Below, piece after piece: positions 1,422-63,431 of a DNA stretch of 64,000 nt. The translations under genes and the position numbers were made by a program. The notes beneath the pieces were generated by a model that was not told the origin of the DNA, did not search any database, and was given only the letters and a program-made list of their open reading frames with translations. The number at the start of each line of letters is the position of its first letter. The stretch's first letter is position 1. The DNA comes from Chrysomallon squamiferum (lineage: Eukaryota; Animalia; Mollusca). The stretch covers positions 12,090,001-12,154,000 of the forward strand of contig CM022674.1 of NCBI GenBank assembly GCA_012295275.1, read 5' to 3'.

Positions 1422-1619
1422 GTGCATGATGATAACTTAAATTTATAAAAAGTTTCTCCTTTGGAAGATATCCCGCTGTTCCATTAGAGACTAAATAGTG
1501 AACTGATTCAAAAGTAAACTGGTCCCGAACAAGACATTTGTTCAGTCTCGCTTTAAAAGATATGTAACATTCTTCTCTGGATAAAGCCGAGACCTCTACT
1601 ATAGATAAAGGCACCGTAA
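1422..1619 (-). pseudogene. G1: disrupted paralogue, exon 2 (signal peptide end plus first half of domain A)
   Basis: AG/GTGAGT-bounded exon homologous to the six other exon-2 copies but 198 nt instead of 199. A 1-nt deletion near 1461 (ctcct-ttggaag vs ctccttctggaag) shifts ...[13 protein letters not shown] into LPKEKLFINLSYHHARE. Coding exon 1 is absent: at about 1715 intron 1 joins directly to promoter-like sequence. Remaining exons would lie left of position 1. Confidence 0.75.
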
Positions 1620-2078
1620 CTGTGAAGAAAGAAACAAAAACAAATCTACAAAATACGTCATTAGTTGTTTCCAAAAGCCGTGACGTAAATCGTGCGTAAT
1701 ATGCTAAAAACATCATGTTTACGCTTTAGTATATACAATAAAATTCTGAATTTGTATGTCATATCAAATTAATAAATAATAATAGAAACATACGAACATT
1801 TTAAAAAATTAAAAAAGAAAGATAATTCTTACTGGACAGTGGATAATAATAAATCATTTAAATTCTAGTTATTTTCTGTTTATACGTGTGTTAGTTATTT
1901 ATAAAATTTTAATTCATTTACGACTTCGTTTTAACAATCTCTAACGTACTTTCACTTTAATGGTTAAAAACTATTTTTATAATTTTCTAAATAATAAAAA
2001 TATTAATATTGTCATTTACTGTTATCTTACAGGAAAAAATAAATAGATAAATAGATAAGTACTACATTGGTGTATTAT

Positions 2079-58400: not shown

Positions 58401-61400
58401 TATCCTATAAAGTGAAAATTAAAAGTATTTCTAAAGTATTAACTACCTTCAGTGCCAAATGTGTGTGTGTGTGTGTGTGTGTGTGTGTTTGTGTGTGTGT
58501 GTGTCTGTGTGTAAACGTTAAAATATTTATATTGTTACCTTTCCTCTACTTTATCCTTGTCTTGCTTTTGTCTTTTTCTGAAAATATTATCATGTAATTA
58601 TTAAGATCATTTATATATTTTGCAATACAAACAAAAATTATTTGGCCCATTATTATCCATTTATAAAATATACAAATAATGAATGAATGAATTAGTATTT
58701 AACGACACCCTAGCACAAAAAAAAATATATCGGCTACTGGAAGTCAAACAAAGGTAAATATAACAAAAACGTCATATAGAAATAATCAATCAATTAATTG
58801 AATTAACGTGATTTTGAGTTAATGTTAATTAACTTAAATTCCAATACTGATATTTTGAGATATTTACCTGGAATATATAAAACAGATCCCTAAGACTACC
58901 AACACTGCAAGAAATATAAGTAAATAGATCCATTCTTCAATCCATTTCGCTTTTATTTTCTCTAAAAAGAATAAACAAGTGAAAGAATACTACTATTGCA
59001 ACCACCATAGCAAAACCAACAACAACAATTACTACTACTACTAGGATATTACAGCATTGATAAAAATACTACCACTATCACATCCCTTGAAGTAGCACTG
59101 CAATAAATTATAACTTTTAAGGTGTTATTGATGCTATCAGTATTACTGATACGAATTCTACTATTACTTATAAGACTACAACCATCATGTGACAGAGACA
59201 ACTAGAATGACTAGAAATACTGTTGTTACTACAGCATACCTGGACACTTCGTGCTACTGTAACATATTTCTGTTCTGTTAGTGTTATTTCCATTATAAAC
59301 TCGTCGAATGCCTTTTCCACAAGTTGCACTACACATTGAACCGTTCTTCCGTTTTTACTGCTGGTTGTATGGGTTTTGGTTCTTTGGCTGGTCTGATATT
59401 TTCTGTGCCATCTGAGTGAAGGATGAACAGATAATGAGATAATCAGACAGGCACACAGGGAAACACACACATAGACGGACTGACAAAGAGAGTGAGAAAC
59501 GGAGCGAGAAAGAGCGAGATATAGGGGTCCGAAGAGTTGGAGACAGAGAGACAGTAAGATATAGGAGAACGATAGAGAGAGAGAGAGAGACAGAGAGAGA
59601 GAGAGATTTTTGTTTAAAATTTATTTAGAATGACCTGTTTACTCATTTCAAACTGTCTTCAGAACAATTTTTCACATTTGTAGCCTTCATCATATAGTTC
59701 AGTAGCCACGTCTTCTCTGTTAGTATAAGATTGCTACTATTACTTATAAGACTACTACTAACATTAAAGAAAGATGACAACCAGTAGGACAAGAAATATT
59801 CTGTTGTTACTATAGCATACCTGGACACTTCGTGCTAGCATAACATACTTCTGTTTTTCTAGTGTTTCCATCATAAACGTGTCTAACGCCTTTCCCGCAC
59901 GTTACACTGCACACTGATTCCTTCTTCGTTGTTACTGCTGGTGGTCCGTGTTGTTGTTTTTTCTGGCCCGATTGCTTTTGTGATATCTGATCTTACTGAG
60001 TGAATGTAAACAGATAATGAGACAAACATACGGTGGAAACACTTATAAACAGAGAGAGAGAGAGAGAGAGAGAGAGAGAGAGAGAGAGAGAGAGAGAGAG
60101 AGAGAGAGAGAGAGAGAGAGAGAGAGAGAGAGAGAGAGAGAGATTTTTGTTTAAAATTTATTTAGAATGACCTGATTACTCATTTCAAACTGTCTTCAGA
60201 ACAATTTTTCACATTTGTAGCCTTCATCATATAGTTCAGTAGCCACGTCTTCTCTGTTAGTATAAGATTGCTACTATTACTTATAAGACTACTACTAACA
60301 TTATGTGACACATGACAACTAATATCAGTAGAAATACTGTTGTTACTATAGCGTACCTGGACACTTCGTTCCAGTGTAACATATTTCTGTTCTGCTAGTG
60401 TTATTTCCATTATAAACTCGTCGAATGCCTTTTCCACACGTTACACTACACACTGAACCGTTCTTCGTTTTTACTACTGTTGGTGGATGTTTTGCTTCTT
60501 CTCCTGGCCTCTTTATATCTTTGCCATTTGGTCTCACTGAGTGAAGGATAAACAGATAATCGTACATACAGACGGGGAAACCCACAGACACACGGGCAAA
60601 GAAAGAAAGACAGAAAGAAACAGAGAAGTAACCAAGAGAGAGAGAGAGAGAGAGAGAGAGAGAGAGAGAGAGAGAGAGAGAGAGAGAGAGAGAGAGAGAG
60701 AGAGAGAGAGAGAGAGAGAGAGAGAGAGAGAGAGAGATTTTTGTTTCTTGACTTACATTTTAAACATTTTTGTTTAAAATTGTCTGTTAGAAGAATGACC
60801 TGATTATTCATTTCTCTCAAAATATCTTCAGAACAATTTTTCAAATTTGTAGCTTTCATCATACAGTTCTGTAACCATGCCATCACGTCTTCTCTATAAA
60901 ACATCAAAGATACAGTTAAAACCATATTCAACAGATAAAGAAGATGAAAAAAGATAAAGAGAAAGAAACTGAGAAGGATTCAATTTGTGTGTGTGTTAGA
61001 TGGAAAGAGAGAGATGGAGAGAGAGAAAAAAGAGGGAGATAAAGTGAGAGTGAGACTGAGGGAGGGAGACAAAAAGAGAGACTCACGTGCAAAACATTTT
61101 CAGCTTTCTGCGAGAAGGCAAAGATCCAACCTTACCAGCTGAAGACATATAATTAAACTGTTCTACGGTCAGCCCTTTCAGACCAAAACATGTTTTGTTC
61201 ACATCTTCGACAAACTTTGTTTTGCAGGGGTCAATTTCTCGAAATCGTGGCGGAGATATTGTAACTCGATATGTATTGGAAAATCCTGGTTCAGAAAATA
61301 TTTCGGAACGAAAACTATTAGTATCATAGTGAGATTTGTTCCTTCAATCAATTTTTCTATTTTCTTTTCTATTCCTGTGGCAGGATGTTTTTGTTTTTTA

Positions 61401-63431
61401 CCGTAGTATTTCAACATTCTCCTTAACGAGATATATTTTCTCAACGTAAATGTAGCAGTAAGTTTAACATTTTATCGATTAACATAATATATGTATATAA
61501 AAATAAACATATGTCTGTGCATGTGAGTGTTCCTCTGTATATGCGTGCTTATGTGCGTTCTCAGTGTTTGTGTGAGTCTGTCCCTGTCTATGTCTTGGTG
61601 TTTGTGTGTGTTAACAACAAAAGCTCCTGAGACAGTAAACTCTGGAACTGTGGATAATTTAAATTTAAAAAAATGTGTTATTGTTTCACTGATTGCATAT
61701 CGAGGTTTGTACTTTGGTTTTAGCTTAATAACCAGACAAAAAAAAAAAAAAAAAAAAATAAATAAATAAAATAAAATAAAATAAGATAAAATAAAATAAC
61801 AAAACAAAACAATACAAAACAAACAAATAAACAGTTAAAAAAAAAACAAGAAAGAAGGAAAGAAAGAAAAAGAATTTTTGAATTTAATTTATATTTATAT
61901 TTATATTTACTTTCGCAGTCTACAGGAAAATAACAGCTGGCACTATGAGTTTTTTTGGTTTTCCCTAAACACAAATCTTTAGCTGTCCCTATAGTTGTGC
62001 CATTTTGGCAAACTCTTGTCCTTGTTATGCTCATATAGCCTTTTCCGCATAGGACGTTACAGCTGCCTTGCTTTACTGACCAGGAAGTCCATGTTCTGTA
62101 CACTGCAACATTATACACACAACACACACACACACACACACACACACACACACACACACACACACACACACACGAAAAGAAAAAAACTAAGCAGTATTAC
62201 AATATATCATTTTTGTCCGATCTTAAAATGCCTTTTACGTTAAGTAAAATAATATCTAGAGAAAGAAAGAAAAGAGCAGAGAGTTAACATAAACTGACTC
62301 TTTTTTTCTTCATGTAATTGCTGCTTATTGTTTTCTGTTATTAATGTACCTGATGTGCACGTTTCATTAAGAGAGTTAAACAGGAGAAAGAACTCATACA
62401 CAATCTTTTCTATGTTCTTCTTGTTCTTTCGACACGTACTCAGATTTTCAATATATATTTTAGCACGATAGAAGCATTTCTTTATTGCATCTAAGTTGTT
62501 TCCCCTAATTAATAAATGAATAAAAACATAAATTAATTAATTAAACCATACTTTAGGATTCACGCACACACATACAAATGTATAGACAAGTACACAGACA
62601 TAAAAAGATGCGTACACAGTATACATACTCACACACAGATACATACACATAAACACAAACATACATATACATATACATACAAACATAAAACACACACACA
62701 AACACACACCCCCACATATACACCCATATACACACATATACACACATACACACACACGTGATTAAGGCCGAAATCAAACGTACATATGACAGAAAATATT
62801 TAAAATCCTAAAATACAATTTTGCCAGTGACAGGTTTCCCACTAAAAACAGACACACGGAAAAATGATGAAAGACAAAAGGTCGGAGTGCCTCGGAGGAC
62901 GTGAAGGTTATCTTTGGTCACTGACCAACCTTGTTTAACGTCGTACGCCTTCGAAGTGACTGGAAACATCCTTACACACAGATACAAACACACATGTACA
63001 CACATATACACACATACTCACACAGAAACATAGAAACACACACAGATGTGTACATATATACATATATATGTATGTGTGTGTGTGTGTGTGTGGTTGTGTG
63101 TGCAAACATGAACACAGACAAATACTTCCCATATATGCATGAATACATACTTACTTACATACTGTTCGCACTTTCATACATACATACAAACATAAAAGCA
63201 CACTATACAAAGACACACAAAAATCCACTAACGTGCATATTAATAATCTTAATGTTTCAAAAGTTTCTCCTTCTGGAATAGAACCAATTTTTCCATGTGA
63301 GGCTAAATAGACAAGTGATTCAAAAGAAAACCCGATTCCAGCTAGGCATGTGTCTAATTTTTCTTTATAAGTTTTCTTGCATTTTTCCATAGAGAGATCC
63401 GATACCTCGACTGTAGATAAAGAAACCGTAA
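55434..63431 (-). CDS. G7: type I membrane protein, long architecture; 5' partial (exon 1 not found in window)
   Basis: Exons 63431-63233, 62504-62350, 62102-61911 (TSP1), 61285-61087, 60893-60757, 60536-60357, [59995-59821 and 59411-59240 frameshifted mini-TSP copies], 58961-58868 (TM WIYLLIFLAVLVVLGICFIYS), 58577-58539, microexons 57920-57882, 57362-57324, 56741-56703, 56188-56150, candidate last exon 55506-55434 (KETALKKWKSKKKDSSKEERKKD*). Confidence 0.75.
56150..58577 (-). repeat. G7 tandem exon-intron repeat array (cytoplasmic microexons)
   Basis: Intact 39-nt units at 58577-58539, 57920-57882, 57362-57324, 56741-56703, 56188-56150; the unit at about 58203-58240 has lost its acceptor. 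Confidence 0.72.

What the first reader, a model, noticed from the sequence alone, without database searches (positions are those of the whole stretch)
1422..63431. Tandem cluster of seven modular, rapidly diversifying single-pass receptor-like genes hidden among microsatellites
Seen: the same ordered exon set recurs seven times on the minus strand with conserved lengths, phases and splice sites (25/199/146-155/192/199/137/120-180/94-97/39 nt). It splices into signal peptide, Cys-rich ectodomain, TM helix and charged tail. None of this appears as a long ORF. Established: the 192-nt exon has the thrombospondin type 1 repeat signature. Inference: a variable N-terminal domain, adjustable stalk, variable tail and birth-and-death in tandem resemble invertebrate recognition clusters (by analogy only: Hydractinia Alr, Biomphalaria polymorphic transmembrane clusters). 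I know no described family with this domain combination.
Basis: partly seen in the sequence, partly recalled or inferred. Interest (0 to 1): 0.92.

Follow-up and report, generated by a model that had tools for sequence, protein, structure and literature searches.

The report
Variable-headed invertebrate surface receptor gene cluster
This stretch of animal DNA holds six related genes and one broken remnant, predicted to encode cell-surface proteins whose outermost cysteine-rich part differs strongly between copies and matches no described family, so they likely recognise varying partners, but no expression or function has been shown.

Summary
The cluster is real, but the count needs correcting. 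There are four long copies, two short copies and one lone frameshifted exon, all on the minus strand. Core exons are constrained: 0 stops against 33 expected, and 0 of 66 cysteines changed against 27 expected. Among the long copies, domain A is 42-54% identical and TSP1/domain B 74-77%. Copy E has a head from one lineage and a membrane segment from another. Evidence for positive selection is weak (p 0.01-0.04, uncorrected). A search of 1.84 billion proteins gave two plausible relatives: one unnamed exon-sized ORF and, weakly, repeats in an uncharacterised Lymnaea membrane protein. No RNA data, genome or reliable fold was obtained, and the organism is unknown. It works like a polymorphic transmembrane recognition cluster but is not an Alr, and PTC membership is unsupported. 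The scan has not reported this family before, though it has reported analogous clusters in other invertebrates.

The parts
55434..63431 (-). Copy A, long form. Exon 2 63431-63233, exon 3 62504-62350, TSP1 62102-61911, domain B 61285-61087 and 60893-60757, truncated TSP1 60536-60357 (two more at 59995 and 59411 are frameshifted), TM 58961-58868, five 39-nt tail exons 58577-56150, last coding exon 55506-55434. First exon not found in the window.
   Evidence: 473 aa to the stop when the two frameshifted exons are skipped
40500..52063 (-). Copy B, short form. Exon 1 52063-52039, domain A 51412-51214 and 50707-50556, five truncated TSP1 exons 50196-46918, TM 46232-46136, eleven tail exons 45020-41210 (the one at 43588 has a stop), likely terminal exon from 40618.
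   Evidence: open for 511 aa, through the TM, when all exons are used
32773..38687 (-). Copy C, long form. Exon 1 38687-38666, domain A 38074-37876 and 37052-36898, TSP1 36615-36424, domain B 35995-35797 and 35586-35450, truncated TSP1 35317-35138 (a second at 34800 has lost its AG), TM 34395-34299, tail exons 33937 and 32820. Terminal exon not assigned.
24800..31569 (-). Copy D, short form. Exon 1 31569-31545, domain A 30872-30674 and 30448-30303, truncated TSP1 29687-29511 (a second near 30068 lacks the usual acceptor), TM 28885-28789, seven tail exons 28147-24800. Terminal exon not assigned.
   Evidence: open for 303 aa
13493..21673 (-). Copy E, long form and chimeric. Exon 1 21673-21649, domain A 21017-20819 and 20363-20212, TSP1 19929-19738, domain B 19098-18900 and 18525-18389, truncated-TSP1 exon 18165-17808 with six 36-nt units, one 2 nt short (frameshift), TM 17501-17405, tail exons 16621, 16022 and 13571.
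   Evidence: the frame is kept if this exon is skipped or the acceptor at 17927 is used
4817..10228 (-). Copy F, long form. Exon 1 10228-10204, domain A 9756-9558 and 9065-8911, TSP1 8671-8480, domain B 7869-7671 and 7312-7176, truncated TSP1 6917-6798, TM 6485-6389, tail exon 5731, stop early in the 48-nt exon at 4864.
   Evidence: 390 aa with a 15-residue tail
2150..2320 (-). Orphan truncated-TSP1 exon with its donor end deleted
1422..1619 (-). Copy G, a remnant: exon 2 only, with a 1-nt deletion; exon 1 is deleted
10249..10256 (.). TGACGTCA palindrome about 20 nt upstream of the start codon; also at 21694, 31592, 38711 and 52085, so in 5 of the 5 first exons found
   Evidence: that it is a CRE-type element is recalled knowledge

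Best explanation
A tandem family of genes, predicted to encode single-pass cell-surface proteins, whose variable outermost domain likely binds changing outside partners (microbes, parasites or non-self cells) as a recognition receptor. Shown: the exon sets, the constraint on frame and cysteines, two architectures, a head more divergent than the body, one chimeric copy and decaying exons. Inferred: (1) exons 2+3 and 5+6 each fold into one three-disulphide, mostly helical domain; (2) domain A is the ligand-binding tip, held out on a rod of TSP1, domain B and 1-5 truncated TSP1 units whose number sets its reach; (3) unequal crossing-over and conversion make the bodies alike while swapping and preserving different heads; (4) the basic tail has no tyrosine motifs, so it would act by binding cortex or membrane and through the R-R-S-T sites formed at many joints of the 39-nt exons (a basophilic kinase consensus, recalled), or through a partner chain; (5) phase-symmetric exons allow splice isoforms.
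For: Constraint: 0 stops against 33.3 expected (minimum 17 in 2000 scatterings) and 0 of 66 cysteines changed against 26.7 expected, over 24 comparisons with copy F. Signal-peptide-like N-terminus in 5 of 5 copies with an exon 1. A hydrophobic TM segment in the expected frame in 6 of 6. Among A, C, E and F, domain A exons are 54% and 42% identical, TSP1 and domain B 74-77%. Copy E sides with B at 22 of 34 informative sites in domain A (6 with C), but with C at 9 of 9 in the TM exon. Site models: M2a beats M1a for domain A (p 0.013 and 0.043) and domain B (p 0.016 and 0.013). The same pattern of clustering, domain-level exchange and decay is described for Hydractinia Alr, and clustered hyperdiverse single-pass genes for Biomphalaria PTC.
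Against: No RNA, tissue, allele or phenotype data were obtained. None of the 10 site tests survives Bonferroni correction, recombination inflates such tests, and domain B shows as much signal as domain A. Overall dN/dS is about 1 with about 20% of sites fixed, which relaxed constraint also gives. No ITAM, ITIM or YxxPhi motif in the 5 tails scanned (E not scanned). Tails range from 15 to about 126 residues, which fits weak constraint. No characterised relative was found to lend a function.
Confidence: 0.5

Rival explanations
1. Reproductive surface proteins (gamete, spermatophore or genital-tract recognition) that diverge under sexual selection.
For: Lineage-restricted and fast-changing ectodomain. 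No immune signalling motifs. TSP1-containing proteins occur on ascidian sperm, and polymorphic gamete receptors are known (PMC8849226 passages).
Against: No similarity was found to any named gamete protein. Paralogue turnover and head swapping fit host-parasite pressure at least as well (inference).
Confidence: 0.2
2. Adhesion or surface-coat glycoproteins (epithelium, skin, nervous tissue) under relaxed constraint. The diversity is a by-product of an unstable, repeat-rich locus and not of selection on binding.
For: dN/dS about 0.9-1.1 in domains A, B and the stalk under M0. dS rises with dN in domain A. Many decayed stalk and tail exons. TSP1 repeats, up to 10 N-glycosylation sequons and a basic tail fit adhesion molecules (the link is recalled).
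Against: A nominally significant class of sites with omega above 2 in both helical domains. Heads stay divergent while neighbouring modules are much more alike.
Confidence: 0.25
3. A decaying array of pseudogenes, or an assembly artefact of a repeat-rich region.
For: Remnant G, frameshifted stalk exons in A and E, and stops in tail exons of B and F. No RNA evidence.
Against: Core exons of six copies keep frame, splice sites and all cysteines at 60-97% DNA identity. Copies are too divergent to be collapsed or duplicated haplotypes.
Confidence: 0.05

Closest known systems
Biomphalaria glabrata polymorphic transmembrane clusters GRC/PTC1 and PTC2 (PMC7494358; passages read)
   Same: Clustered single-pass genes of a few hundred codons, lineage-restricted, with low identity between paralogues.
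   Different: PTC2 genes are stated to hold no known domain besides the TM and no homology outside gastropods. These genes carry TSP1 units and a clear modular plan. No PTC protein was hit. Allelic hyperdiversity and a resistance effect define PTC and could not be tested.
Hydractinia Alr family (bioRxiv 10.1101/2022.03.04.482883; abstract and sections 8 and 9 read)
   Same: Tandem type I membrane genes and pseudogenes, most variable in domain 1, with exon shuffling between paralogues and very variable tails.
   Different: Alr ectodomains are V-set and I-set Ig plus FN3-like, and many tails carry ITAM or ITIM. Here the domains are six-cysteine helical units and TSP1, and the tails have no such motif.
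Lymnaea stagnalis uncharacterised protein CAL1542962.1 (P0003)
   Same: Apparent signal peptide and single TM helix, and five six-cysteine repeats (C-x10-C-x23-C-x8-C-x7-C-x22-C) that align in order with domain A/B (C-x10/11-C-x32/36-C-x10-C-x9/13-C-x21/24-C).
   Different: Similarity is weak (10.7-16.7 bits per repeat; hhalign probability 56%). It has no TSP1, is 1548 aa long with low-complexity spacers, and has no known function.
Thrombospondin type 1 repeat superfamily (Pfam PF00090); four-cysteine TSR of Plasmodium circumsporozoite protein
   Same: The 192-nt exon has WxxW, C-x-V-x-C-G, RxR and six cysteines. The stalk units keep CSVTCG and four cysteines, and hit circumsporozoite TSR, F-spondin and thrombospondin-1 chains weakly (E 2e-8 to 1e-2).
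   Different: The stalk units have lost the tryptophan layer and the inner cysteine pair. The match to the parasite protein rests on the CSVTCG motif and implies no direct relation.

Membership tests
Hydractinia Alr | V-set/I-set immunoglobulin domains | tested here: not met
   No Ig family hit for any exon. The confident part of the half-domain model is helical. Six-cysteine spacing as.
Hydractinia Alr | ITAM or ITIM in many tails | tested here: not met
   0 of 5 tails scanned; terminal exons of C and D unassigned; E not scanned
Hydractinia Alr | Tandem cluster with pseudogenes and exon shuffling between paralogues | tested here: met
Hydractinia Alr | Allelic polymorphism that controls fusion or rejection | not testable with these tools
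   one haplotype, no phenotype
Biomphalaria PTC1/PTC2 | Cluster of single-pass transmembrane genes | tested here: met
Biomphalaria PTC1/PTC2 | Sequence homology to PTC/GRC proteins | tested here: inconclusive
   No hit, but PTC sequences were not compared directly and are themselves very divergent
Biomphalaria PTC2 | No known domain besides the TM segment | tested here: not met
   TSP1 and truncated TSP1 units are present
Biomphalaria PTC1/PTC2 | Hyperdivergent haplotypes linked to parasite resistance | not testable with these tools
   no population data
TSP1/TSR domain (192-nt exon) | WxxW, CxVxCG, RxR, six cysteines | tested here: met
   4 of 4 copies by alignment; Pfam TSP_1 13.8-16.4 bits, below the 21.6 cut-off
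Six-cysteine repeat of Lymnaea CAL1542962.1 | Significant full-domain similarity and shared fold | tested here: inconclusive
   For: repeats beat 200 cysteine-fixed shuffles (maximum 8.3 bits), and the second half beats 2000 of 2000 column shuffles on a fitted alignment. Against: the full-domain profile does not report P0003 at database scale, the second-half profile alone misses it, and one search set the third cysteine in another register.
DUF19/CPG4, odorant-binding or prolamin-type helical disulphide domains (recalled leads) | Profile or fold match of the whole domain | tested here: inconclusive
   Only half-domains could be scanned; best hit Prolamin_like E 0.039 in 1 of 10

The most novel reading that the evidence does not exclude
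An invertebrate recognition-receptor family built on an undescribed six-cysteine helical domain rather than Ig, LRR, lectin or EGF. It diversifies by swapping heads between paralogues and tunes its reach and signalling by the number of truncated-TSP1 and 13-residue tail cassette exons. If the animal is a cephalopod, as the repeat landscape suggests, this would be a concrete candidate for a variable self/non-self, symbiont or mate recognition locus in that group.
Probability: 0.25. Interest if true: 0.85.

Novelty: new variant of a known kind. Interest (0 to 1): 0.58.

Why it matters
How invertebrates without antibodies tell partners, parasites and kin apart is an open question. The known variable receptor clusters use Ig, LRR, lectin, EGF or unclassified ectodomains. 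This cluster offers a small, tractable family with a binding module not matched to any described family, a chimeric copy, and exact exon coordinates for RNA and population tests. Its exons are at most 199 nt among microsatellites and no close database entry was found, so gene callers may be missing it. The general kind (variable single-pass clusters) is known and recurs in other invertebrates, so surprise is moderate until function or polymorphism is shown.

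Full report
Setting. The window is AT-rich animal DNA (29% GC) with 8.5% perfect microsatellite, mostly AAT, AG and AC. No genome is held, the scan has no earlier notes on it, and the organism is unknown. The repeat landscape recalls coleoid cephalopods, but that is recalled knowledge and was not tested.

Observation. Self-comparison and exon seeding found the repeated unit on the minus strand. Splice sites, lengths and phases were then fixed exon by exon. 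A profile census gives 7 copies of exon 2, 6 of exon 3, 4 of the TSP1 exon, 4 of each domain-B exon plus 2 fragments, 15 truncated-TSP1 exons, 6 TM exons and 23 hits to the 39-nt tail exon. So the window holds four long copies (A, C, E, F), two short ones (B, D) and a remnant (G). G has a 1-nt deletion and has lost exon 1. Exon 1 of A was not found in the 570 bases left upstream.

The copies are genes. I compared exons 2-6 and the TM exon of A-E with F (24 pairs, not independent; G left out) and scattered the observed substitutions at random. This gives 33.3 stops (minimum 17 in 2000 runs) against 0 observed, and 26.7 changed cysteines against 0 of 66. All length differences in these core exons are multiples of three. 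The exons were first spotted as open frames, which biases the stop count somewhat but not the cysteine count. Decay sits in the repeated modules: two frameshifted stalk exons in A, a lost acceptor in C and in D, a 2-nt deletion in the internal repeat of E's stalk exon, a stop in one tail exon of B, and an early stop in F. These modules have symmetric phase, so skipping them keeps the frame.

Anatomy. Exons 1+2 give a hydrophobic N-terminus in 5 of 5 copies that have exon 1. Exons 2+3 (domain A) and 5+6 (domain B) are paralogous, with six invariant cysteines and a Y-x2-S-x-G-x2-G-S-[LI]-P motif. The half-domain model is two helices at modest confidence. The 192-nt exon is a six-cysteine TSP1 repeat by motif, though below Pfam's cut-off. 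The 'stalk' exons are truncated TSP1 units with four cysteines and a Pro/Thr linker; their profile hits TSR-bearing chains weakly. Intact units number 1 in A, C, D and F and 5 in B. The TM exon reads as a hydrophobic helix only in the expected frame in 6 of 6 copies. Tails are basic, 15 to about 126 residues, and built from 33-48-nt phase-2 exons. None of the 5 tails scanned has an ITAM, ITIM or YxxPhi motif. Terminal exons of C and D were not assigned. A TGACGTCA palindrome lies about 20 nt before the start codon in all five first exons. The window has 15 such sites against 0.7 expected, but paralogous copies are not independent.

Evolution. Among the four long copies, domain A exons average 54% and 42% amino-acid identity, while TSP1 and domain B average 74-77%. 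Copy E is chimeric: in domain A it sides with B at 22 of 34 informative sites (6 with C), in the TM exon with C at 9 of 9. dS rises with dN in domain A, so the heads are older, or escape homogenisation, as much as they evolve faster. dN/dS under M0 is 1.02-1.06 for domain A, 0.56 for TSP1 and 0.90-0.96 for domain B. M2a beats M1a for domain A (p 0.013, 0.043) and domain B (p 0.016, 0.013), but not for TSP1, stalk or TM. These are my own implementations on 4-10 sequences, with stop-bearing or frameshifted exons left out. None of the 10 tests survives Bonferroni correction, and recombination inflates such tests. Diversifying selection is suggested, not shown.

Relatives. Word-indexed searches found none. 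A full HMMER pass over 1.84 billion representatives with the first-half profile gave 6 hits at E 0.001 or better, four of them repeat artefacts. P0005, a 67-residue ORF on an unnamed 370-kb ENA contig, looks like a single exon of this family: 36% identity to exon 2 of F, with three cysteines and most of the motif kept. So the domain likely exists in at least one other genome. P0003, an uncharacterised Lymnaea stagnalis membrane protein, has five six-cysteine repeats of similar spacing. They beat cysteine-fixed shuffles (10.7-16.7 bits against a maximum of 8.3 in 200), and the half not used in the search beats 2000 of 2000 column shuffles on a fitted alignment. Against this, hhalign gives only 56% over 28 columns, the full-domain profile does not report P0003 at database scale, and another alignment shifted the third cysteine. 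I rate this homology as plausible and unproven.

How it likely works. Best reading (0.5): a variable recognition receptor. Domain A would be the binding tip, TSP1, domain B and the truncated units a rod of adjustable length, and the basic tail a cortex anchor or phosphorylation array rather than a tyrosine-motif signal. Many tail-exon joints read R-R-S-T (seen by eye; the kinase consensus is recalled). Unequal crossing-over would supply new head-body combinations. All functional steps are inferred. Rivals: relaxed adhesion or coat glycoproteins (0.25), reproductive recognition proteins (0.2), pseudogenes or artefact (0.05).

Comparison with known systems. It works like Hydractinia Alr (abstract and sections 8 and 9 read) and Biomphalaria PTC (passages read) in clustering, domain exchange and turnover. 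It fails Alr membership (no Ig, no ITAM/ITIM) and differs from PTC2 in carrying TSP1; homology to PTC proteins was not shown. Ten literature searches listed no family with this domain set. They cover open-access text only, mostly assumed a mollusc, and supplements were not read. Earlier scan notes list analogous clusters of EGF or Ig receptors in other invertebrates (unchecked), and none with this sequence.

Verdict. A real, apparently undescribed gene family with an unmatched six-cysteine domain, in a known kind of locus. Splicing, expression, fold, polymorphism and function all remain untested. Interest 0.58; new variant of a known kind.

Noticed in passing
window 23707-24652: Minisatellite of about 28 copies of a 34-bp unit, 94% matches, downstream of copy D's tail exons.
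   Followed up: no
window 10249, 21694, 31592, 38711, 52085 and ten further sites: TGACGTCA palindromes, 15 against 0.7 expected; one sits before the start codon in each of the five first exons found, which suggests shared inducible control.
   Followed up: partly
window 37411-37587 and about 660-1260: Fragments that look by eye like decayed Tc1/mariner transposase; no Pfam hit.
   Followed up: partly
window 17938-18159: A 36-nt coding minisatellite (six units) inside copy E's truncated-TSP1 exon; one unit is 2 nt short, either a real frameshift or an assembly error.
   Followed up: partly
window 44324, 43056, 27029: Three related 39-nt tail exons in copies B and D use a GC donor instead of GT.
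   Followed up: no
window 60249 and 59712: Partial duplicates of the second domain-B exon, copied together with stalk exons in copy A; one of those stalk exons (59995) is of the B/D type.
   Followed up: partly
window about 4760-5090, 15950-16350, 33220-33650: A shared intronic stretch in the tail region of copies F, E and C that may be a short mobile-element relic.
   Followed up: no
P0003 (Lymnaea stagnalis CAL1542962.1): Uncharacterised 1548-aa single-pass protein with five six-cysteine repeats; no relatives found among shorter proteins and no Pfam hit on the repeats.
   Followed up: partly
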